Assembly: GCF_009914755.1 (NCBI RefSeq)
Contig: NC_060944.1
Direction: 5' to 3' (one strand)
Source: the human T2T-CHM13v2.0 reference genome, Homo sapiens
Length of the DNA: 64,000 nucleotides
In this document: piece by piece, positions 19,687 to 36,559 of the stretch
Position numbering within the stretch: the stretch's first letter is position 1
How the letters are laid out: the number at the start of each line of letters is the position of its first letter
Made by a program: the position numbers and the translations under genes
Notes under the pieces: generated by a model
Told to the model about the DNA's origin: nothing
Databases searched by the model: none
Seen by the model: only the letters and a program-made list of their open reading frames with translations

Positions 19687-20405
19687 CTGAAACAAAGAAG
19701 AGGCTCGTTCACTCACGCTTCCCACACCCTCCCTCCCATTGCTCAACACTGGCTGGCTTCCCCACAGGCAGTATCAAATCCCAGCTCCTAGGCCTGCTGT
19801 TCCAAGACCCTCTGGATTCCCTCTCCCACTCTGTGGGGTGTGACAGTTAAAAGGCTCACCGTGGTAGATGCGGATTACACGTTACAGGCCCGCCTCCTTT
19901 CCCGAAGTGACTGTCTTAAGGGGAAAACTGTGTCTTTTGAAACTTCTGCTTCCAAAACTTCTTAGGCCCACAGCCAGGGTTTAACAAAAGCTTGCTGGGT
20001 GCCATAGATAGAGCACTGATAAATAGGAACCCAGAATCCAGCCACCTCCTAGCACCCTTGGTTCGTATGACTCCCAGGCAGGTTACTCTATGTCTCTGAT
20101 CCCCAGTGTCCTCATCTGAAAAATAGGCCCAATGTGGAATGAAGTAATACCCATCTGTGAAAGGTCTTATCACGTGCATACGGAACAGGCCTGGGCCCGG
20201 ATTCTAAAAACATGCTATAAAATGCACTTATGAGATGCAGCCACCAGATGGTGCGACAGGACTTCTGGAAGAAAATTCGTCCCAGGGCCAAGTTCCCGAA
20301 GACCGGGCCTCCCAGTATCAGGGCCAGTACTTTGCAGGTTTATAGGACCACGCTCCAAAGAGCCAGCAAATGCTGTAGTAAAAGAAAGATCGCTAAACCA
20401 CTCAC

Positions 20406-24707: not shown

Positions 24708-25022
24708 CTGTAAAATCACATAGTTCATACTTTCAAAACAAGACTTAACCAGAAACATTCCAAGGAATTCATAGCTTTTTAATTACACTCAGTCTCAAAA
24801 ATGCTTTAAAAATTAAGAAGAGGCTCCTTAAACTATAAATACCACAGATGCATGTGAGAAAAATCTTTGTAACAGTATTTTTAATGGAAATTCAAGAAAA
24901 AGAAGACAAAACTAAAGTATAAAATGTTACACGATTCTACTGTAGAAACAGGTGGATTCACATTCTTAACATAAGCCTTAACACACATCATTCCAGAGAA
25001 ACAGCCTTCCCGGCAGTTTTAC

Positions 25023-25193
25023 CTGTGTGGGTGTTAACATGGTTCCGCAGCAGAGTGACCGTACGGAAGGTTTTCAGGCAGAGGTGACACAGGTGAGGCT
25101 TCTCACTGGTGTGAGTTTTCATATGACGATTAAAACTTGACATTCTAGAAGAGGTGAACATGCAGACATCACAGTGGAAGGTTCCTTTTGCTC
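25023..25193 (-). CDS. CTCFL: CTCFL exon 4 ([11 protein letters not shown]...RNHVNTHT), ZF1-2
   Basis: cctatag acceptor, gtaaaa donor, 171 nt; missed by the ORF track, translated manually. Confidence 0.97.
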
Positions 25194-25659
25194 CTATAGG
25201 CAGGAAATAGTTTATGTATTTGTTAGAGGTTCAAATTCCATTTAAATACTTGAAAGTAAATCAGCACATCGTCCTTTCAACTAACGTGGGAACTGAACAA
25301 TAGCACATGCTATTTATATCCACAAGCTGATCGAAGCAATTCAGGACACCATGTTCCTGGATAATGAACAATGCATTTTCGCTGTTTCAAGATGGGCCGA
25401 TGTCTGTTTCTGGGCACAGAGTGGACTAGGTACTCTGCTCATCCTTCTTGCTGAGAAAAACAATGCTAGGGAGGAGATGCCTGAACATTTCAGAATGTCT
25501 TGTAGACCTAAGGAGAGATGAGAAAAGGCACACCGCCTACCTGAAGTGGGGCGCCCAAGAAATGTGGCCCTGCATTCCCTGTAGGGTGAACTAAAGATAA
25601 CCCGCCCCATCTCTGCATCCTTCTCTCTAGCCAGGGGACTGCAAGAAAAACCATCTAGA

Positions 25660-25880
25660 ATGGTGCCATCCAAAACCACAGCCATAAGTCATGTGTGACT
25701 CTTAAATTTGGACTTAAACTAATTAAAATTAAATATAATTGAACATTTAGTTCCTCTGTTGTAAGCCACATTTCAACTGCCCAAAGGCCACATGGAGATA
25801 GTGGCCACCGTACTGAACAGGGCAGATAAAGACCATTTCCATCAGCAAAAGAAGTTCTCTTGGATGATGCTGGTCTAGCA
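25660..25880. mobile_element. MER33/MER3-like fragment
   Basis: agccacatttcaa...agtggccaccgtactg...catttccatca. Confidence 0.6.
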
Positions 25881-26449
25881 CTGATGGAGAGGTGAAAACA
25901 TTTGCCCTAAGGAGATGGCTCCAAAGAGGGAAGGTGGCCCCAGTGAGCATGTCCTGGGTGGTTCTAACAGTAACCCTTGGGGGATCTGGTTTAAGACAGT
26001 TTTTGACCATCACTGCCTGGCAGAAATTAATATATACCATCCCTTGAAGAACCCACTTTCACCCCAGGCTTCAAGGGATTCCCATAGATAACAGTAAAAA
26101 GAACCAATCAGCTCACAGTGATAAATAAGATGCCAGTGCAAGGGCAGCGGAAACAAACAGAAGACTCAGACCTACAAAGACTTCAGATGTTGGAATCATC
26201 AAATACAGAATATAGCTGAGTTGTTATTCTCAAAATCCATCCCTCCATAAAAGCAATGAAAACAACTGGCAAAAAAATGTCACAAGCAACTTTTTCAGGA
26301 CACTGGAAACTAACTGGAAGCTTCCAGCAACCAGGGGAAACAATTTAAAAAATCTAGCTGATTCTCAGTAAAAAAGAGAGCTTGGTGGAATTCTAACTTA
26401 TTCCGGTTCCATTCTCTGCTCCCTAGCTCAGGGGTGGCCTTGAAAATAA

Positions 26450-27860
26450 CAATCCAAGCTATATTAACAGAATGATGAAAAAAACAACAACACAAGATCA
26501 TCTCAATAGATGCAGAAAAAGCATTTCATAAATCCAACACCGTTTTCTTGATAAAATACTCAACAAACTTGGAATAGAAGGTTTATGGGTTGAGTTGTGA
26601 CCCCTGCAAAAATACATGAAGTCCTCATGCCAGATACCTGTGAATGTGATCTTATGTGCAGAAAGGGTCTTTGCAGATGCAATCAAGCTAAGCTGAGGTC
26701 ATGCTGGATGAAGGTGGGTCATAAGCCAGTATGACTGGTGTCCTTATAAGAAGAGGAAAAGAGATGTAGAGACATACAGGAATAATTCCATGTGATAACA
26801 GAGGCAGAGATTGGAGGAGTAATGCATCTGCAAGCCAATGAATGGCACGACTGCTGGCAATATCAAAAGCTAAGAGAAAGGCATGAAATATATTCTCCCC
26901 GACAGCCTTGCAAGAGAGCATGGCTTTGCCAACACCTCAATTTCACACTCGTAGCTTCCACAACTGTGAGAGGTATGTTTCTGTTGTTTGAAGCCACTCA
27001 GTTTGTGGCACTTTGTCATGGCGTCCCTGGGAAGCTAACACAGTGCCAGTTAAAAATGGGCCAAAGATTTGAATAGCCATTTTTTCCAAAGAAGATACGT
27101 AAGTGACCAATGAAAACATGAGGAGATAGTCAACACCTTTCGTCATTAGAGAAATGGAAACCAAAACTACAACGAGATACCTCTTCACACCTGCTAGGAT
27201 GGCTATAATTAAACAATAACAACAAATGGAAAACAAGCGTTGGTGAGGATGTGGAGAAACTGGAAGCTACACACACTGCTGGTGCAAATTCAAATTGGTG
27301 CAGCTGCTATGGAAAATAGTGTGGTAGCTCCTCAAAAAATTAAACATAGAGTAACCACACCATCCAGCAATTCCACTCCTAAGTATATACGCAAAAGAAC
27401 TGGAAACAGGTGCTCAAACAAAAAACTTGTACACAGATGGTCATAAGAACACCATTCACACTTGCTGAAAGGTGGACACAATTGCAGTGTGCATCAGTGA
27501 ATGAAGGGATAAATAAAATGTGCTATACCCATACAGGGATTATTACTTAGCCATTAAAAACGAATGAAGCGCTGACACATACTACAATACCAACAAACCC
27601 TGCAAACATGATGCTAAGCTCAAGAATCTAGACACGAAAGGCACATGGTATACATATATGATTCAACTTCTGGAAAATGTCCAGAACAGGAAAATCTACG
27701 GAAACAAAAAGTAAATTAGTGGTAGCCAGGGGCTAGGAGGAACAGAGTAGGAAGTGACTGCCTAATCGGTACAGGCCTCTTATTGGGGTGATAAAAATAT
27801 TCTGGAATTTAGACAGTGTTGATGGGTCTACAAATTTGAATATATCAAAAACCTAAAAAT
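26450..27860 (+). mobile_element. Old L1 fragments interrupted by an MLT1 LTR (~26583-27045)
   Basis: atcatctcaatagatgcagaaaaagcattt (L1 ORF2) and L1M 3'UTR motifs; MLT1 3' block tgtttgaagccactcagtttgtgg. Confidence 0.75.
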
Positions 27861-28882
27861 GAGCTAGAAATTGTAAAACTTGGGGTGCAAAGCTCTTGAT
27901 TTAAACATATGAGAAACTACTATGTACCAAAAGGCTGCAAACTCAACCACCTATGGAAGGCAGAGGCAAGAAACCTAAGTGAAGGGCCCTGACCACATGT
28001 AAGAATGGGGTGGTGGTGGCAGTGTTTGGTTGGCATTCTCCTTTTCTAAACTGAGTCACCTTCCAATCCCAGGCACCTGATGCCAGGAGGAAGGAAAACT
28101 GTGCCAAGTGTTGCCAGATATAATTTAAAAGAGCTAGAAATTGAAATTTTGGGGGTGAAATATGTTGATTTAAATAAGTGAGAAACTAATATTTTTAAAA
28201 AATAAGCCAAACAAATTATTTTCATAGGACAAATTCATCCTGTGGGCTGCTGGAATGAAATCTCAGTTTAATATGGCTTTAATATTGCTTCAGGGTCTTC
28301 CTAATCTGGACCCATCCACCTCTCTGAGCACCCACCCAGCTCTACAGACACAGTAGAGCTCTCCACCCTCAGATACAAAGTAAATACTTCCAGAGCTACA
28401 CGCCCAGACCACTTCCTAGTACTTGGAATCCTGATCCCCATCTTAGTGGCTTCTTTGTCCTGGACTCACCTAAATATCACCTCCCTTAGAAGGCACCCTC
28501 TACGGCTTCCTGAAGGAGGAATCACTCCTTCTCTTGGCCCTGAAGCACACGAGGCCTCACCACCTGTCCTGTAATGACTTGTCCCCCATATCCCTCTGGG
28601 GCTGCAAACTAGGCAGCAGAGACCAGGGCTTGGTCTTCTATGCTTACGTGCACAAGGCTTTGTGGGAACATTTTTACTGTGCTTTCAAAACGTTTGTGTG
28701 TAAAGTGCAAAACCCTTCTGGATTTGATTCACAATACAGAACATTAGTTTAAAATTTCTCCCATTTCCTGACATTTTGAAAGTAAAAGTCAACCACTTAA
28801 AACTTCAATTACCATCACCTGCCCATAAAGAAAACAGCAGCCCAGTTTTAGGGAGTGTATTCTATGAGATGAACTGGCCTAC

Positions 28883-29093
28883 CCTTTGTCTTTCTTTGAT
28901 TTTTTGTAGATTTGGCCTTTTCAGCATCTGCTTGACCAGCTGTAGGTTGATCCTCTTGTTCTTCCACATTTGAATTTGAAACTGTGAGAACAATTTCGTC
29001 ACTTCTTTCATCTCCTGACATTGTTTCCACAAAAAAGAGCTGCTCCTTTGTTCTTTCAGCCAATAACTGGTTCTTCTCCTGCTCTTCCTCGAG
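28883..29093 (-). CDS. CTCFL: CTCFL exon 3 (LEEEQEKNQLLAE...QRKTK)
   Basis: ttattag acceptor, gtaggc donor, 211 nt. Confidence 0.97.
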
Positions 29094-29477
29094 CTAATAA
29101 ACAACAAATATTCAAATATGATACTATTGATTTCAGTATAATTAGACTTTTGCCTGGATGAAGCACAGAATACAAAAAGAAAAGCCAAAGTGGAAGATTA
29201 TGCATCACAATGTTAATTATTTCGCATCAGGGTTGTGGCAGTGAAACTTAACACTTTTTTTTAAAACATAATGCGCCTTACACTATTCCAATTAGCACCA
29301 CTTTTAAAACTCTTTTTTAAAAAAGAACCTAAGAACTCTCAAGATTTTCCTGGGAAGTATTTGTACTGTCTTTAATTTGCAACTGCAAAATACCTTGTCC
29401 AGACATAATATTGCATAAAAGCCGACTTGAATTTTTTCTTTTTCATGTAAGGGGTTGTTTATTAAAACCAGCTGTAC

Positions 29478-30020
29478 CTTGATCAGTCCAGCAGTTTCAG
29501 CCAGGCTCACCGCTAACTTACTGTCTTCACTGGCCACCATCACATTCTCCTCTAGAGCGTGGAACTGCAACACCTCCATCTCTTGCGGGGAGTACAGCTC
29601 TTGCTGGATACTAATGGCCACACACTGCTGCAGGCTCTGCCGGGGCCCTTCCTCAAGCCACAGCAACCCAGGGCCAGGCTGTTGCACCACCACCTGCACC
29701 CCTTCTTGCTGCTGTATGCTCAGCAAGCTCATATCCTGCAACTCCACAGCTTCAGAAGTGAAGTGCACCGTCTGCAGGGTCAGGATGTACTTCTCGCTCT
29801 CCTCCGAGGGGGCCAGCACCAGCTCCACTTCTTCCTCCAGGACGCTGTCCTGGAAGGCCCCAGAGGTACGCTGGGCCTCCAACTCACTAGGGCTCCGATG
29901 GTCTTTCTCTCTGCACACTCCGTCTTTTTCCTCCTCCTTCAGGCCTTTTTCCGGCATCAACTCGAGTTCTTTGATCTTGGTGAATTGCTCAGAAAGGACA
30001 GAGATCTCAGTGGCTGCCAT
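29478..30020 (-). CDS. CTCFL: CTCFL exon 2, first coding exon (MAATEISVLSEQFTKIKELE...AGLIK); exon acceptor at 30031
   Basis: Recognised BORIS N-terminus; 543 nt; gtacag donor. Confidence 0.98.
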
Positions 30021-30269
30021 AATGACTTGGCCTGTTTGAAAAATAAGCAAGCGGTTTCCATAGAGGGGAGAAGGGGGTGGTATGAGGAGGGATGCGGGGG
30101 GTGCTGGAACCTAGCAGGCTTTGGAGTTGAAACAAGGTCTGGCCTCAAAAGGTTTTGGACTTAGTAGGGTCAGAACAATGCTGATCTGGCTTGGGTCTAG
30201 GAGGGGGTCAAGGCTAAGCAGGATTTAGGCTAAAGCAGGATTTTGTACAAAACCCTAGAACGAACAGGT

Positions 30270-30600
30270 TTGGGCCTCAGCAGGCTTAGGGCCAGCACAC
30301 ATCCTGCGCCTGGCAAGGTTCCGCCTGAGCACACTCTGGCCCAGTGCATATCCTGGGCCTAGCAAGGTTAGGCCTGAGCCGGTTCAGTCAGTGAACATCC
30401 TGGGCCTAGTAAGGTTTGGGCCCAGCAGGCTCTCGGCCAGTGCACATCCTGGGCCTAGCAAGTTTCAGGTCCAAGCAGGCCCCGGGCCAGTGCACACCCT
30501 GCGCCCAGCGAGGTTCGGGCCCGAGCAGGCATTCCCCTCGTGCACGGTTCTAGACCTAGCACCCTCAGAGCCAGGCAGGCTTTGGGCCTAGTGGCCTCGA
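30270..30600. repeat. Degenerate ~49-50 bp minisatellite in intron 1
   Basis: (c/t)a(t/c)cctg(g/c)gcc recurs at ~30300, 30349, 30396, 30445, 30495. Confidence 0.8.
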
Positions 30601-31020
30601 GCCCACCCAGACTTGGCCAAGCAGCCCTCGGCCAGACCAAGCACACTCCCTCGGAGGCCTGGCAGGGCCCCTGCTTTACCCTGCCCCCCACGCCCCGCCC
30701 CGACCCGACCCTCCCAGGCAGCCCCTCAGCGTCTGCCGCCCGCCCTTGGGCCTTTCCGGCCAGCCCCTCCCTCCGCCCACGCCCAGAACAGCCCATGCTC
30801 TTGGAGGAGAGCAGGTGGGCTTGACCGGGACTGGCCCCTCACCGCGGAAGGCGTGGCCGGAATGCTCGGCCCACTCCGTCTTTGGCTTGTGGGCTCTGCC
30901 TCGTGCACCGCGTGCTGCAGCCCACAGCCGGCCGCCGCCGGGCTGGCGCGAGAGTGGAGGGTGGCAGTGCGCAGGCGCGGAGCGGAAAAGAGGGGGCGTT
31001 AAGGGGGCGGAGCCAGGCAG
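30480..31020 (-). promoter_or_regulatory. CTCFL: CpG-island promoter region of CTCFL (alternative promoters, GC boxes)
   Basis: High GC/CpG density, GC box ggggcggag ~31004; established methylation-controlled cancer-testis promoter. Confidence 0.85.
30843..30962 (-). other. CTCFL: CTCFL non-coding exon 1 (5'UTR); another donor candidate at 30680
   Basis: CCGCG|gtgagg donor; matches the recalled 5' end of BORIS mRNA; TSS approximate. Confidence 0.75.
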
Positions 31021-32760
31021 GGTTGGGGGAGGGGGTGATGTACTGTGGGGGCAGGGGGGAAGGGGAGTAGGGAGGGGGAGGGGGAGCACGGATGAGGAGG
31101 ACCCCAGAGGGGGCACTGGTGGACCTGGGGGGGTGGATGAGGAGGGGAGGAGGGTCCCATACAGGGCACTGGGAGACCTGGGGTGGGGGTGGATAAGGAG
31201 GGGAGGAGAGCCTGCAGGGCACTGGAAGACTGGGTAGTGGGGGAGCGCCTAAGGAGGGGAGGAGGGTCCTGCAGGGGCACGGAAATACCTTGGGGTTGAA
31301 GTGGATGAGGAAGGGAGGAGGGCCCCGCAGGGGGCGCTGGGAGACCCGGGGGGGAAGTAAGGAGGGCACGAGGGCCTGCAGGGGGCCTGGGAGATCTGAG
31401 GGGGAATGGATAAGGAGGGGAGGAGGGCCCACAGGAGGCACTGAGATACTGGGGGGAGGGGTGGAATGAGGGGGGGAGGGGTGGAATGAGGCGGGGAGGA
31501 TAGCCCTGCAGGGGGGCTGGGAGACCTGAGGGGGGTGGTGGGTAATGGATAAGGAGGGGAGGGGGGCCTGCAGGGGGCCTGTGACACCTAGGGGAGGGGA
31601 ATGGATAAGGAGGGTAGGAGGGCCAACAGGAGGCACTGAGATACCAGGGGGAGGGGTGGAATGAGGAGGGGAGAGCCCTGCAGGGGGGCGGGGAGACCTG
31701 AGGTGAGGGTAATGGATGAGGAGGGGAGGAGGGTCTGCAGGGGTTCTTGGGAGACCTGGGGGATGAATAGGAGAGGACAAGGGGAGGAGGGTCTGCAGGG
31801 GGCCCTGGGAGCCCTGCGGGGGGCGAGGGGTGGGGGAATTGATAAGGAGGGGAGGAGGGCCTGCAAGGGGTGCTGGGAGACTTGGGGGAGGGGAATGGAT
31901 AAGGAGGGGAGGAGGGCCTGCAAGGGGTGCTGGGAGACCTGGGGGAGGGGAATGGATAAGGAGAGGAGGAGGGCCCGCAGGAGGCACTGAGAGACTGGGG
32001 GGAGGGGTGGAATGAGGAGGGGAGGAGAGCCCTGCAGGGGGCGCTGGGATACCTTGTGGGGGAATGGATAAGGAGGGGAGGGGGTCCTGCAGGGGGCGCT
32101 GGGAGACCTAGGGGAGGGGAATGGATAAGGGTGGGAGGAGGGCCCGCAGGAGGCACTGAGATACTGGGGGGAGGGGTGGAATGAGGAGGGGAGGAGAGCC
32201 CTGTAGGGGGCGCTGGGAGACCTTGGGGGGAATGGATAAGGAGGGGAAGAGGGCCCTCAGGGGGCGCTGGGAGACCTGGGGGGGAAATGGATAAGGAGGG
32301 GAGGATGGCCGCAAGGGGCACTGGGAGACGCTGGCGGGGAATGGATAAGGAGTGGAGGGGGGCCTGCAAGGGGCGCTGGGAGACCTGGAGGGGAAAGGAT
32401 AAGGAGGGAGGAGGGCCTGGAGGGGGCGCTGGGAGACTTGGGCGGGGGTGGAGGGAATGGATAAGGAGGGGAGAAGGGCCTGCAGGGGGCACTGAGACCT
32501 GGTGGGGAATGGATAAGGAGGGAGGAGGGCCTGCAGGGGGCGCTGGGGAACCTGGGGGGCTTGGATAAGAAGGGGAGGAGGGCCTGCAGGGGGCGCTGGG
32601 AGACCTAGGCGGGGCGGGGGTGGGGAATGGGTAAGGAGGGAAGAAGGGCCTTGCAGGGGGCGCTGGGAGACCTGGGGTCGGGGGGAGGATAAGGAGGGGC
32701 AATGGGAGAGGATGGGGAATGGGGTGCTTAGAGACTTGGGTGGGAAATGGACGCAGCAGG
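31010..32760. repeat. G-rich minisatellite (~50-60 bp unit, roughly 30 degenerate units) upstream of CTCFL
   Basis: consensus ggggaatggataaggaggggaggagggcctgcagggggcgctgggagacct. Confidence 0.95.
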
Positions 32761-35299
32761 GACTGGGCGGGGAGAGACCTTACAAGGGTTCCAGGAGATG
32801 GGTTGGGGTGGGCTGGACAGGGCAGAGTGGAGGGTGAGGAGGGCCCTCTGTGAGCCACAGAGACCTGAGCAGGAGCTAGGTGGGGGCTGGGAATGTGCAG
32901 GAAAGGAGACGTGGAAGGAGGGGGAGATAGGGCGGCAGGGGTGATGGAGATTGACAGGGACCCCAGACATGGGGGTAGGGAAATGGGGATGGAAATAAAT
33001 GGAAAAAAAGAGGCTTCGTGGTGGGAAAGAGGAGGAACTCCGAGGGCTCCGGGGCACTGAGGTGTGCAGAGTTGCCGGGTCCTGAGTACCCTCGAGGGAG
33101 CAGAGGGAGCTCGAGGAACGAGGAAGAGAGGGGACGACGAGGGCAAAGAAGGGAGAACGTAGGCGGGTGTGGAGGAGGATGAGCGTCCGAGGGAGAAGAC
33201 GGAGGAGTTGAGCAGAGAAAGGGCAGGAATGTGGGGGCTGGAAAGGGTGAGGAGGCAGCCGATGGAGCAGGGGTGCATCGGAGTTCATGGGTACTTCCCA
33301 GGAGCTCATTTAAGGCAGGTGGGAGGGCGGGGGACGTGGAGGGGCGGCCACACTGTGAACGGACTGAAGCCCACTTAACTGTTCACTCTAAAGTGGTTCA
33401 GTTCGTTACGTGTGTTTTCACTTCAATCAATTGCTTTTAATGGAAATTAATCATATTGATGGTCTCCAGAAGAAGTTGGGTTGATACCTGCAACCAGATT
33501 TTAAAAATGCAAATTTGGAGCCAATGAGTGAATGAAATAATTTGTACCTCACTGATTCTTTTAAGGCATAGCTTACAACGTTCCAGAAACTGTTCTATTT
33601 GTTTTCACTTTTGTTTCAAAATCTTAATGGCATTTTGTTTGCTGATTGTGAATAAATATTTGTATGCTGCGAAAAGCAAATCCAAAACCAACAGCTCAAA
33701 GGAGAAAGTGTGGCAAACAGGAGATTGGAGATTGGACCCCAAAACTCCTGGAGTGACGAAAATTGACCTGGATGAAGAAATGGCTTTCTCTTGGCCTCCT
33801 TTTGTTTAAACATATCTTCCAGTCCTGGGGATGGATTTCCCTCCCATCCATAGCCAGAGAACTTTCTGTATCCATCAAAGTGCTTTCTATGTTTGCCCGC
33901 TCTCCACAGCTCCCTCTTTGTCATTCGCGAATAGTATATAATCAAATATTGTTTTCATTTTCAATAATATAAAAGATAGAACTAAATTCAGCTTTGAAAG
34001 ACACCCATGTACCAGTGGGTACTGGTACACTTGCCAGTGACTTTCTTCGCTCCCTAGTTTCTGCGTGGTGTCTGGGGTTTCCGTCACAGTATATGTACTA
34101 TACAAAGAAAATAAATATTTGAAGGTCACTGGGAAAGTAGTATGCTATAATGACTTACTTTAAATCATTTAAATGAGTTTTTCTGCTTGAGTAATCAGCA
34201 CCTATTTAGTGCCTCCTTGAGTAATTTTGCGTGATGGCTGTGACATGCTGCTAGGAAGTTTTTCAGAGTTTGTATTATAGAATCATGTTTAGAAAATTTC
34301 AAATACCAATTTAAAAGGCATGTTTTAAAAGGAGATATAAAGCCAGTGGGAGGAGGGATAGAGAAAGGGGAAACTGAGTTAAATTTGAAGGGGACAAAGG
34401 GGCTTAAAAAGAGAAATAGATGGAAAGGGAGGGATGAGGAGGAGGAGAGAGGGCCAAGCAGGCAGGGGAGGCAGGCCTGCAGTTGCTAAACTTTGCTTCT
34501 TCCCCGCGTTCTTGGATAATATTTGTGGGGAGGCACTCCAAGCCAGACCTGCTGGATTTCCTGCTCGTAGGCCTGTGCAGCCCAGGAAACTGTTCAGAAA
34601 AGTAGGAGGTAGGATCCTATTTGTACCCTGAGTGTGTGGAGCAGTTTCTACCAGGTAAACCTTCCATCCCTGTTTTTTAGGGGATCAAGATAGACTGCAA
34701 GGCAAGATGCTTGCATTTAGTCTCAGATGAAAAGAACAGTGGACTCCCGGGCCCTCATCCTCCTTGTCAAGTCTCAATTCCTCAGATGGGCTTCAGTTCT
34801 CTCTTTAACTAATGCTGTGCACCTGTCCAGCCTTTTCATCTACAGAGTTCTGTCTCTGCTCCATCCAGACCCATCTCCTCCTTATCCCCAGGGGCTGTGC
34901 TAGAAGTGGATGTAAGGGGCAGAGTGTGTCTTGTTGCTTGCATCCAAAACCTGCTGAGACCCAGGCCCTCCTCGTAGCAAATGCCATTCGGTCTCTTACA
35001 GATGCCCAGGTGTGGTGACGGGCCAGCCATGGGTTCCCCCAGTGCCTGCTGTGGAGCTTGGTCACTTGCATCCTCCGGGTAACAATGATATTTATTATGC
35101 CTTTTGTACCCGATGTTTGGGGATTTCCATGTGGACAGGTGAGCTTTGCTCTCCCAGCTGCCAACTGGCTGTAGTGCACATGTTTTGCAGGTGGTATTGC
35201 TTCGTGGTGGGTCCACACTATGAGCTTATCAGGCAATGTGCTCAAAGGAAAGGAAGGCCTTGCGAAGTATGTGGCACAGGTAGGGGCTATACGCATATT

Positions 35300-35755
35300 A
35301 CTGTGTCCCCCCAAATTCATATGTTGAAGTCCCAACCCCCAGTACCTGGGGGTACAAAATGTCACGATATTTAGAGGTAGGACCTTTAAAGAGGTAATTC
35401 AGTTTGAACAAAGGCCACGGGGGGCAGTAGGGGTGGGGGAGAACTAAGCCACCTGACTGTGTTAGGGCCTCCAAAGAAGTGATTATTAAAATGATGGCGA
35501 GAGGATGGGGTCCCAAGCCTACCTGGCTGAGGTCCTTATAAGAAGAGAAGACACCAGAGAAGGACACACACAGAGGAAAGGCTGCGTGAGAGCAGCAAGA
35601 AGATGGTTTTGTGTGAGCCAAGAAGGGGGCCTCGGGAGAACCAAACTTGCCAACACCTTGCTCTTGTACTTCCAGCCTCCAGAACTATGAGAAATAAATG
35701 TCTGTTTTCTTAGCCACTCAGTCTGTGGTGTTTTGTTACGGCAGCTCTAGCACAC
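35300..35755 (+). mobile_element. MaLR (MLT1A/MST-like) LTR
   Basis: tgtgtccccccaaattcatatgttgaag...cttccagcctccagaactatgagaaataaatg. Confidence 0.75.
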
Positions 35756-35952
35756 CAGTGCAGGTACACACCAGGAGAGGCTCACACCAGTGCAAGCTCA
35801 CACCATTGCAGGCTCATATCAGTGCAGGCACACACCAGGACAGGCTCAAACCAATGCAGGCACACACCAATGCAGGCTCACACCAATGCAGGCTTACACC
35901 AGTGCAGGCACACACCAGTGCAGGCTCACACCAATGCAGGCTCACACCATGC
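35751..35952. repeat. 16-bp tandem repeat (cacaccaRtgcaggcW), ~12.5 copies
   Basis: directly visible. Confidence 0.95.
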
Positions 35953-36559
35953 AAATGGGACCGAGTGTGGGAGGCTGTGCTACTGCATGGTTGCTGAAAG
36001 CAAATGTTGGAAAACATATTCCACTTAGCCCTTTGGGCTAAGAATTATCCCCAGCACATGTGCTTGACTGGGTGGGCATGGGGACAGATGAGCTCTAGAG
36101 CATTATTTGGAACTGGCATAGATTCAGATAGAGATGGACAAATCAGAAATGTAAAAATATTTTGAAAAAAATTCTATGAGGCAGCAATGGACGAGACAGG
36201 CCATTGAGTGCTGTCATTGTCTTTAAAAAATACTATGTTCACTGCTTTCAAAGTAAGTGTCATGAGGTTTATTACTTAGTGGTTCTCTGGCTCCCCTAAG
36301 TTGACTGTAAAATCTTTATGAGGCACTTGGTAAGCACATAAGTATTTGAAGTACCCAAGGGATAAAAGAGCTCGGTAGTGAAATGGTGAGTGAAGGCTGG
36401 AATTGCCCTAAAGTCTGGGTAGGAAGGGGGCCTCCAGCTGAGTATGCCAAGCAAGTAACATGAATTATCTCTCAAATCTTCTAGAAAGCCCTATGAGGGG
36501 GCAGTATCATAATACCCTTTTCACAGAGAAAGAAATGGAAAGGTTAAGAAACTTGCTCA

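What the first reader, a model, noticed from the sequence alone, without database searches (positions are those of the whole stretch)
31010..32760. Promoter minisatellite is a tandem array of CTCF/BORIS motifs upstream of the BORIS gene itself
Seen: the repeat unit contains GGGCCTGCAGGGGGCGCTG, versus the CTCF consensus TGGCCACCAGGGGGCGCTA. Strong cores lie at ~31324, 32031, 32086, 32200, 32254, 32479, 32530 and 32583. Variants lie at ~31375, 31567, 31623, 31974, 32143, 32364, 32416 and 32650. All are on the + strand, ~50-60 bp apart, and best preserved in the distal half. Established: BORIS and CTCF share this motif, BORIS favours closely clustered sites, CTCF represses BORIS promoters, and binding is CpG-methylation sensitive (the motif carries a CpG). 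A polymorphic BORIS upstream minisatellite has been reported, as I recall, but I do not recall it described as a CTCF-site array. Inference: a copy-number-tunable, methylation-gated auto/cross-regulatory rheostat. Forward orientation would also make it a multi-site loop anchor facing the right-hand intergenic region, shielding a germline gene from neighbouring enhancers.
Basis: partly seen in the sequence, partly recalled or inferred. Interest (0 to 1): 0.88.

Follow-up and report, generated by a model that had tools for sequence, protein, structure and literature searches.

The report
CTCF-motif minisatellite at the CTCFL promoter
The repeat array just upstream of the CTCFL (BORIS) gene is the already published BORIS-MS2 minisatellite, and most of its roughly 56-base units do carry a good CTCF/BORIS binding motif, a link the papers I read imply but never state.

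Summary
Window 31092-32744 holds 29 tandem units of about 56 bp. With a CTCF matrix that I recalled from memory, 17 units carry a + strand match at p<1e-4 and 9 at p<1e-5. Composition-matched shuffles give about 1 match per region, and about 4 in 10,000 shuffled units reach 16 bits.

The element is known. Published primers place the polymorphic minisatellite BORIS-MS2 at 31746-32727. It has 10-18 copies and represses in reporter assays. Renaud 2007 showed CTCF binding by EMSA and ChIP in promoter A, which consists of the proximal units. Later papers list the BORIS promoters among clustered CTCF sites, describe tandem repeats as co-binding arrays for CTCF and BORIS, and report BORIS/CTCF co-occupancy of the BORIS promoter with autoregulation. 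My 8 answered literature searches found no paper saying that the MS2 units are CTCF motifs.

- Methylation gate: the motif CpG sits at core position 12, the methylation-insensitive one; 0 of 29 units have a CpG at position 2; and promoter A EMSA binding was methylation-insensitive.
- Copy-number rheostat: reporters with 10-18 copies showed no clear relationship to expression.

The loop-anchor idea is untested.

Verdict: real, partly supported, and a new member of a known kind. Interest is moderate.

The parts
31092..31832 (+). Proximal, degenerate half of the array (units u01-u13). It contains promoter A and the start of exon 1A. CTCF-like hits on + are at 31321 (13.3 bits), 31425 (9.7), 31620 (15.5) and 31789 (9.5).
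   Evidence: TRF row 31094-31479, 66-69% matches; unit table; matrix scan. CpG observed/expected is 0.18.
31833..32699 (+). Distal, well-preserved half (units u14-u28), which is the core of the published minisatellite BORIS-MS2: 57-bp period, 15.4 copies. It holds 13 + strand hits at p<1e-4: 31857, 31914, 31971, 32028, 32083, 32140, 32197, 32251, 32360, 32413, 32476, 32527 and 32580.
   Evidence: TRF score 875. CpG observed/expected is 0.30.
31746..32727 (.). Span of the PCR amplicon used in print to genotype BORIS-MS2 (982 bp in this assembly).
   Evidence: Primers quoted in PMC4973313 each map once with 0 mismatches.
32476..32598 (+). The three best motifs in a row (18.8, 19.2 and 19.2 bits; starts 32476, 32527, 32580), spaced 51 and 53 bp.
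   Evidence: Two exact copies of this 14-base core lying 30-50 bp apart occur at 2 places in the whole assembly, both in this array.
31467..31467 (-). Transcription start of promoter A (RefSeq transcripts ending at 31467; -1447 from the ATG at 30020). It lies inside unit u07.
   Evidence: RefSeq table; PMC2175345 abstract. A 20-bp x2.5 internal duplication at 31451-31499 surrounds it.
31429..31556 (.). Published 'CTCF ChIP PrA' qPCR amplicon, where CTCF occupancy was shown in BJ fibroblasts and Ovcar-8 cells.
   Evidence: Primers from PMC2175345. The forward primer maps once at 31534-31556. The reverse primer maps exactly at 31429-31451, and with 1-2 mismatches at two other units.
31296..32091 (-). 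Published promoter A reporter fragment (-2071 to -1276 from the ATG). It is made almost wholly of array units u04-u18. EMSA fragments 2-4 within promoter A bound CTCF.
   Evidence: Coordinates from PMC2175345 section 17, converted with the ATG at 30020. EMSA text is; the exact probe ends are in a figure I could not see.

Best explanation
The 1.65-kb G-rich minisatellite at the 5' end of CTCFL is a tandem array of CTCF/BORIS binding sites. Its distal 15-16 units are the published VNTR BORIS-MS2. Its proximal 13 units form promoter A and the start of exon 1A.

The array arose by amplifying a ~56-bp unit that contained one CTCF core, partly as a 3-unit (169-bp) higher-order repeat. Every adjacent pair of good units therefore reproduces the closely spaced, same-strand '2xCTS' layout that CTCF homodimers or CTCF-BORIS pairs occupy.

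Proposed working:
- In BORIS-negative somatic cells, CTCF sits on the units around and upstream of start site A and represses the promoters.
- In germ cells and cancers that make BORIS, BORIS joins CTCF on the cluster and turns it into an active start site, giving positive feedback.
- The element behaves as a redundant cluster or switch, not as a graded copy-number dial.
- The array motifs themselves are not gated by CpG methylation. That role belongs to the CpG island of promoters B and C.

Shown in print: CTCF EMSA and ChIP in the proximal units; repression by the MS2 fragment; derepression after CTCF knock-down; promoter-level BORIS/CTCF co-occupancy.

Inferred by me: that the distal, best-scoring units bind; that CTCF causes the MS2 repression; and that start site A is a BORIS-reprogrammed clustered site.
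For: Sequence:
- 17 of 29 units score at p<1e-4 and 9 at p<1e-5, and 17 of the region's 18 hits at p<1e-4 are on the + strand.
- Region shuffles give a mean of 0.97 hits. Unit shuffles reach 16 bits in about 0.04% of trials or fewer.
- An IUPAC check puts 7 of 10 window matches in the array, against 1.24 expected for the whole window.
- In 264 kb around the locus, the array holds 17 of 64 + strand hits. The next densest 1.7-kb cluster has 4.
- Spacing is 51-63 bp, which matches the 30-40 bp linker class of PMC4562119.

Literature (passages read):
- PMC2175345: 3 EMSA-positive fragments in promoter A; ChIP occupancy that varies inversely with promoter use; CTCF siRNA derepresses all three promoters. 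Its ChIP amplicon maps inside the array.
- PMC4973313: every MS2 allele tested lowered p700 reporter activity, 5-10-fold in 293T and about 2-fold in H1299 and MDA-MB-231. H1299 expresses BORIS highly, and HEK293T is called BORIS-negative in PMC10832218. This fits repression by CTCF alone that BORIS relieves, which is my inference.
- PMC4562119 lists 'alternative BORIS promoters' among published closely spaced sites.
- PMC5007689: CTCF and BORIS co-binding occurs mostly at uncharacterised tandem repeats that form staggered clusters.
- BORIS/CTCF co-occupancy of the BORIS promoter, with loss of transcript after knockout. Ectopic BORIS activates the endogenous mouse promoter.
Against: - I saw no occupancy or binding data for the distal units 32091-32700, which hold the best motifs.
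- The core is no better conserved among units than its flanks: 189/210 versus 368/420 consensus cells, Fisher p=0.43.
- 4 of 15 distal units carry A at the highly informative G of the core.
- The array is CpG-poor, and 13 of the 19 units without CG at core position 12 carry CA or TG there. This points to long-term germline methylation, not protected, occupied sites.
- Reporter repression showed no dose-response with copy number, and it was never tied to CTCF in that paper (0 mentions of 'CTCF binding').
- Promoter A, made of these same units, drives transcription in reporters, so the units are not simply repressive.
- Promoters B and C bind CTCF in EMSA although no site there scores above 5.3 bits. 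The matrix is therefore an imperfect guide at this locus.
- The knockout evidence for autoregulation is confounded by splicing instability, as its authors note.
- The matrix was recalled from memory.
Confidence: 0.55

Rival explanations
1. Neutral by-product. A promoter-proximal CTCF site was caught in a unit that expanded by slippage or unequal exchange. Most copies, above all the distal ones, are methylated, nucleosomal and unoccupied in vivo. Copy number and motif count have no regulatory consequence, and only the few proximal sites near start site A matter.
For: - The core is not better preserved than its flanks.
- CpG decay products are common at the motif CpG: CA in 10 and TG in 3 of 29 units.
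- CpG observed/expected is 0.18-0.30.
- There is no copy-number effect in reporters.
- The unit family exists nowhere else in the assembly: 13 of 13 and 9 of 9 matches lie at this locus, as expected of a young local expansion.
- RefSeq lists no functional element on it.
Against: - The MS2 fragment does repress a reporter 5-10-fold.
- The distal units keep the strongest motifs, up to 19.2 of a possible 26.1 bits.
- Published in vitro binding to the proximal units was methylation-insensitive, so methylation alone should not clear the sites.
Confidence: 0.28
2. The array acts through its G-rich character and not through CTCF: G-quadruplexes on the + strand (the template strand for CTCFL), or binding of G-box factors such as MAZ, Sp/KLF or other zinc-finger proteins. 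On this view the CTCF-like core is incidental.
For: - The + strand is 54% G.
- 16 of the window's 21 + strand G-quadruplex patterns lie in 31000-32800, with none on the - strand there.
- 11 GGGAGGGG words (a MAZ-like word that I recalled) lie between the cores.
- PMC2175345 predicted Sp1, AP-2, CREB and CDP sites in promoter A.
- PMC4973313 compares MS2 with other repressive G-rich minisatellites.
Against: - G-richness does not explain the quality of the CTCF match.
- CTCF was shown to bind promoter A fragments and to occupy the amplicon at 31429-31556.
- This view is not exclusive of the main explanation: PMC10832218 examined MAZ enrichment at BORIS-converted sites.
Confidence: 0.12
3. The array is chiefly an architectural element: a multi-site, one-directional cohesin barrier that faces the PCK1 side and insulates the testis-specific CTCFL from the PCK1 domain. 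Promoter repression would be a side effect.
For: - 17 of the 18 hits at p<1e-4 in the region point the same way, on the + strand.
- PCK1 starts 35 kb to the right, at window 66907.
- The nearest strong opposite-strand motif to the right is at window 100366 (22.8 bits), beyond PCK1. A convergent pair enclosing PCK1 is therefore geometrically possible.
Against: I had no cohesin, Hi-C or Micro-C data. BORIS does not retain cohesin (introduction of the 2026 preprint), so the barrier would weaken exactly where BORIS binds. The pairing is my inference from motif direction alone.
Confidence: 0.2

Closest known systems
BORIS-MS2 minisatellite (Leem laboratory; PMC4973313, and a 2010 BMB Rep paper that I could not open)
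   Same: It is the same DNA. The published genotyping primers map at 31746-31770 and 32708-32727. The unit is 56 bp, 10-18 copies are reported with 14 and 15 common, and TRF counts 15.4 here. It acts as a negative regulator in reporters.
   Different: That paper never mentions CTCF binding (0 occurrences). It treats the repeat as a generic suppressor and a marker of cancer risk.
CTCF sites of BORIS promoter A (Renaud et al. 2007, PMC2175345)
   Same: The promoter A fragment (31296-32091) and the ChIP amplicon (31429-31556) are made of array units. CTCF binding, repression and methylation-insensitivity were shown there.
   Different: That paper never uses the words 'repeat' or 'minisatellite' (0 occurrences). 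Its constructs stop at 32091, short of the 8 intact motif hits further out, including the three best.
Clustered CTCF target sites, 2xCTS (Pugacheva et al. 2015, PMC4562119; 2024, PMC10832218)
   Same: Two or more same-strand motifs with a 30-40 bp linker, a preference for BORIS co-binding, and an association with promoters. The text lists the BORIS promoters as an example.
   Different: Here the cluster is not 2 sites but up to 17 in series, and its number is polymorphic in the population.
[quoted passage not shown] 2016, PMC5007689)
   Same: GC-rich tandem units whose repetition creates staggered clusters of sites.
   Different: In that class a unit often holds only a short partial site, whereas here each good unit holds a full 19-bp match. 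I could not see their Table S2, so I cannot say whether this locus is among the 171 repeats.
DXZ4 and similar CTCF-binding macrosatellites
   Same: Tandem arrays in which every unit has a CTCF site, with a polymorphic copy number.
   Different: Those units are kilobases long and act in X-chromosome architecture. This unit is 56 bp and sits on a promoter.
H19/IGF2 imprinting control region
   Same: Several CTCF sites in series that regulate a neighbouring gene.
   Different: The H19 sites have a CpG at core position 2 and are methylation-sensitive. The array has none at position 2.

Membership tests
Minisatellite / VNTR (BORIS-MS2) | Head-to-tail units of 10-100 bp | tested here: met
   TRF period 57, 15.4 copies, score 875; 29 units in all.
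Minisatellite / VNTR (BORIS-MS2) | Identity with the published locus | tested here: met
   Both published primers map once, with 0 mismatches.
Minisatellite / VNTR (BORIS-MS2) | Length polymorphism among people | not testable with these tools
   Only one assembly was available. PMC4973313 reports alleles of 10-18 repeats.
Canonical CTCF binding site | Match to the core motif above composition-matched chance | tested here: met
   The matrix and the consensus were recalled from memory.
Canonical CTCF binding site | Protein binding in vitro | not testable with these tools
   In print for promoter A fragments 2-4. Nothing I saw covers units beyond 32091.
Canonical CTCF binding site | Occupancy in cells | not testable with these tools
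   In print: ChIP-qPCR at 31429-31556, and a promoter-level ChIP-seq peak in OVCAR8 whose exact place is in a figure I could not see.
Clustered CTCF sites (2xCTS) | At least two motifs on one strand with a short linker (30-40 bp class) | tested here: met
   Start-to-start spacing is 51-63 bp within the runs, which leaves a 32-44 bp linker.
Clustered CTCF sites (2xCTS) | Co-occupancy by CTCF and BORIS | not testable with these tools
   Reported for 'the BORIS promoter' in OVCAR8, not resolved to individual units.
Clustered CTCF sites (2xCTS) | Association with a transcription start | tested here: met
   Annotated start site A at 31467 lies inside unit u07.
Methylation-sensitive CTCF site (H19-like) | CpG at core position 2 on the motif strand | tested here: not met
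   0 of 29 units have it; the CpG is at position 12 in 10 of 29. Position 12 is insensitive, and promoter A EMSA binding was unaffected by SssI methylation.
Directional loop anchor / insulator | Motifs in one orientation | tested here: met
   17 of 18 hits are on the + strand.
Directional loop anchor / insulator | Cohesin retention and a contact boundary or stripe | not testable with these tools
Copy-number rheostat | Output graded with the number of units | not testable with these tools
   In print, reporters with 10, 13, 14, 15, 16, 17 and 18 repeats showed no clear relationship. No chromosomal test is known to me.
CTCF-binding macrosatellite (DXZ4-like) | Kilobase-scale unit | tested here: not met
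   The unit is 51-76 bp.

The most novel reading that the evidence does not exclude
The number of intact CTCF cores in BORIS-MS2, and not its length as such, differs between human alleles. That number sets how firmly CTCF locks CTCFL off in somatic cells and how easily BORIS-driven positive feedback ignites. This would be a mechanistic reason why rare short alleles were associated with breast and lung cancer. The same one-directional array would also shield CTCFL from the PCK1 domain.
Probability: 0.12. Interest if true: 0.65.

Novelty: new member of a known kind. Interest (0 to 1): 0.4.

Why it matters
Two bodies of work describe the same 1.6 kb without citing the same feature. One treats it as a cancer-associated polymorphic minisatellite that represses by an unknown route. 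The other treats part of it as the CTCF-bound promoter A of BORIS.

Seeing that the repeat unit is itself a CTCF/BORIS site gives the minisatellite papers a testable mechanism. It also tells the CTCF/BORIS field that the site number at this self-regulated promoter is polymorphic, and that the strongest predicted sites lie in the untested distal half.

It corrects the expectation that these sites are methylation-gated. The gain is a concrete, cheap set of experiments, not a new principle: tandem repeats as CTCF/BORIS site clusters, CTCF repression of BORIS, and BORIS autoregulation are all in print.

Tried and rejected
- PRDM9 hotspot 13-mer (recalled) as a cause of the repeat's instability: 11 window matches, only 4 of them within 31047-32697, and not one per unit. 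Dropped.
- Selection on the motif: I compared conservation of the 14 core columns with the flank columns among units and found no difference, so I make no claim of purifying selection.
- Paralogous arrays elsewhere in the genome: a 170-base query, a 29-base pattern with up to 3 mismatches, and a two-core pattern all matched only this locus. The tool warns that its counts are lower bounds and that closed regions are hidden.
- RefSeq functional elements and repeat masking gave nothing on the array.
- Canonical motifs in promoters B and C: none scores above 5.3 bits, although EMSA binding is published there. The matrix therefore does not explain all CTCF binding at this locus.
- Conservation in other primates or in mouse could not be examined, because no such genomes were on hand.
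I could not see Table S2 of PMC5007689 (is this locus among the 171 co-bound repeats?), the supplementary figures of PMC4973313, or Fig. S10b of PMC10832218. Figure 4B of PMC2175345 (probe ends) and Fig. 2D of the 2026 preprint (peak position) are images that are not held.
- I did not scan other transcription-factor matrices, so I cannot exclude a better match of the unit to another factor.
- 'Not in print' rests on 8 answered searches and on passages from the papers named. The 2010 BMB Rep paper and the 2017 Mol Cell structure paper were not held.
Full report
WHAT IS THERE. Between window 31092 and 32744 the + strand is 54% G and is built of about 29 head-to-tail units of 45-76 bp, most of them 52-57 bp. 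Tandem Repeats Finder splits it into two parts: a degenerate proximal part (31094-31479, 66-69% matches) and a better distal part (31833-32699, period 57, 15.4 copies, 77% matches). It also reports a 169-bp period over 31471-32606. Pairwise identities show that the 169-bp period is a three-unit higher-order repeat: u16/u19 93%, u17/u20 95%, u18/u21 88%, u09/u18 93%. CTCFL lies on the minus strand. Its three annotated starts are at 30512, 30955 and 31467, so the most distal start lies inside unit u07, and 31094-31467 is transcribed in promoter-A transcripts. The unit family is found nowhere else in the assembly: 13 of 13 DNA matches, 9 of 9 pattern matches and 2 of 2 two-core matches all lie here, within the limits that tool states.

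THE MOTIF CLAIM. I scored the window with the CTCF count matrix as I recall it from JASPAR MA0139.1; no tool supplied it.
- At p<1e-4 the window has 43 hits. Of these, 18 fall in the array, and 17 of those 18 are on the + strand. Nine reach p<1e-5, and the best two (32527 and 32580) score 19.2 of a possible 26.1 bits.
Three of the 'variants' (31372, 31564, 32647) fall below p<1e-4 because of one-base insertions or deletions. Two others (31620, 32413) are in fact strong.
- Dinucleotide shuffles of the region give a mean of 0.97 + strand hits, with a maximum of 6.
- Because copies are not independent, I also shuffled single units. About 0.04% or fewer reach 16 bits, and 0 of 20,000 reach 19.2.
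- An exact calculation with the array's own base composition expects 0.011 sites of 16 bits or more in the whole array.
- A recalled IUPAC consensus with one mismatch allowed finds 7 array sites among 10 in the window, against 1.24 expected.
- In 264 kb around the locus, no other 1.7-kb stretch holds more than 4 same-strand hits, against 17 here.

WHAT IT IS CALLED IN PRINT. The genotyping primers printed in PMC4973313 map once each, at 31746-31770 and 32708-32727. The distal half is thus the minisatellite BORIS-MS2.
- PMC4973313 (sections and passages read) reports a 56-bp repeat with alleles of 10-18 copies, 14 and 15 being common. It places a suppressor between -2909 and -1108. Every tested allele lowered a p700 promoter reporter 5-10-fold in 293T, but only about 2-fold in H1299 and MDA-MB-231. 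[quoted passage not shown] It also reports an association of rare alleles with lung cancer. It never mentions CTCF binding (0 occurrences).
- Renaud et al. 2007 (PMC2175345; passages and sections 10 and 17) defined promoter A with a fragment from -2071 to -1276, which is window 31296-32091 and is made of units u04-u18. They found three EMSA-positive CTCF fragments in it, with binding unchanged by SssI methylation. They showed CTCF occupancy by ChIP-qPCR, and the primers map to 31429-31451 and 31534-31556, astride start site A. CTCF siRNA derepressed all three promoters. That paper never uses 'repeat' or 'minisatellite'.
- Pugacheva et al. [quoted passage not shown]
- Pugacheva et al. 2016 (PMC5007689, section 6 and passages) report that CTCF and BORIS co-binding occurs mostly at uncharacterised tandem repeats that form staggered clusters.
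- Pugacheva et al. 2024 (PMC10832218, passages) report that ectopic BORIS bound and activated the endogenous mouse Boris promoter.
- A 2026 preprint (10.64898/2026.08.04.742596, passages) reports CTCF and BORIS ChIP-seq co-occupancy of the BORIS promoter in OVCAR8 and concludes that BORIS autoregulates. Its authors also note splicing instability of the knockout transcript.
- PMC8821627 notes a predicted CTCFL site in the gene's own promoter.
- Eight answered searches turned up no paper stating that the MS2 units are CTCF motifs. Only 4 held papers mention BORIS-MS2 at all.

- Methylation. In the units, the CpG of the motif is at core position 12 (CG in 10, CA in 10 and TG in 3 of 29 units). 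No unit has a CpG at position 2. [quoted passage not shown] This agrees with the methylation-insensitive EMSA on promoter A. The frequent CA and TG variants, and a CpG observed/expected ratio of 0.18-0.30, suggest that the array has long been methylated in the germ line.
- Rheostat. The only published test, plasmid reporters with 10-18 copies, shows no dose-response. This is weak evidence, because plasmids lack chromatin context, but it is the evidence there is.
- Selection. The core columns are not better conserved among units than the flanks (189/210 versus 368/420 cells, p=0.43). Four of 15 distal units have A at a critical G.

MOST LIKELY MECHANISM. I take the array to be a multi-site version of the clustered CTCF/BORIS target. 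Steps shown in print: CTCF binds the proximal units in vitro and in cells; CTCF loss derepresses; the MS2 fragment represses; BORIS and CTCF co-occupy the promoter in a BORIS-positive line. Steps I infer:
- The distal units, which carry 8 intact hits beyond 32091 including the three best, also bind.
- CTCF causes the MS2 repression. The weaker repression in BORIS-high H1299 than in BORIS-negative HEK293T fits relief by BORIS.
- Start site A, which sits inside the cluster with a motif 24-42 bp downstream of it (31425-31443), is an instance of a clustered site that BORIS converts into a promoter. That would give positive feedback.
- A 51-63 bp spacing leaves room for neighbouring proteins. The published ZF3-ZF11 complex was crystallised on a 35-bp duplex; the room for neighbours is my inference.

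RIVALS.
- A neutral expansion in which most copies are idle. This is favoured by the lack of preferential conservation and by the CpG decay.
- Action through G-quadruplexes or G-box factors. Sixteen of the window's 21 + strand quadruplex patterns lie here.
- A mainly architectural role. The motifs point towards PCK1, which starts at window 66907. The nearest strong opposite-strand motif to the right is at 100366, at 22.8 bits. This is geometry only.

JUDGEMENT. The element and most of its proposed biology are already published in pieces. What is new is the explicit identification of the polymorphic repeat unit with the CTCF/BORIS site, and the prediction that the untested distal half holds the strongest sites. 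I rate it a new member of a known kind, with moderate interest.

Noticed in passing
window 30290-30530: A second tandem repeat (49 bp x4.9, 75% matches) lies inside the first-exon/5'UTR region of CTCFL. It has no CTCF matrix hit at p<1e-4. It may be the published BORIS-MS1, but I did not check.
   Followed up: no
window 31471-32606: There is a three-unit higher-order repeat of 169 bp (u16-18 versus u19-21 are 88-95% identical; u14/u15 98%). The three unit types differ in motif quality. The period is close to a nucleosome repeat length, which may be coincidence.
   Followed up: partly
window 31451-31499: A 20-bp x2.5 internal duplication within unit u07 surrounds the annotated promoter A start (31467).
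   Followed up: no
window 30500-31320: Promoters B and C have no CTCF matrix score above 5.3 bits, although EMSA binding (3 and 2 sites) is published there. Binding there must be non-canonical, or the matrix misses it.
   Followed up: partly
window 25000-36518: The array is neither soft-masked as a repeat nor listed among RefSeq functional elements, although it is a published VNTR with reporter activity.
   Followed up: yes
chr20:59372366 and 59375018 (window-equivalent 100366 and 103018; loci L014-L015): The two strongest CTCF matrix hits in 264 kb (22.8 bits on -, 22.9 bits on +) form a divergent pair between PCK1 and ZBP1. This is a likely domain boundary and a possible convergent partner for the array.
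   Followed up: no
window 20238-20256: An isolated strong + strand CTCF motif (16.9 bits) lies inside a CTCFL intron. PMC2975627 mentions CTCF-occupied sites within BORIS exons and introns.
   Followed up: no
window 31092-32744: At the motif CpG, 13 of the 19 units that lack CG carry CA or TG, the products of methyl-cytosine deamination. This suggests the array is methylated in the germ line even though CTCFL is expressed there.
   Followed up: partly
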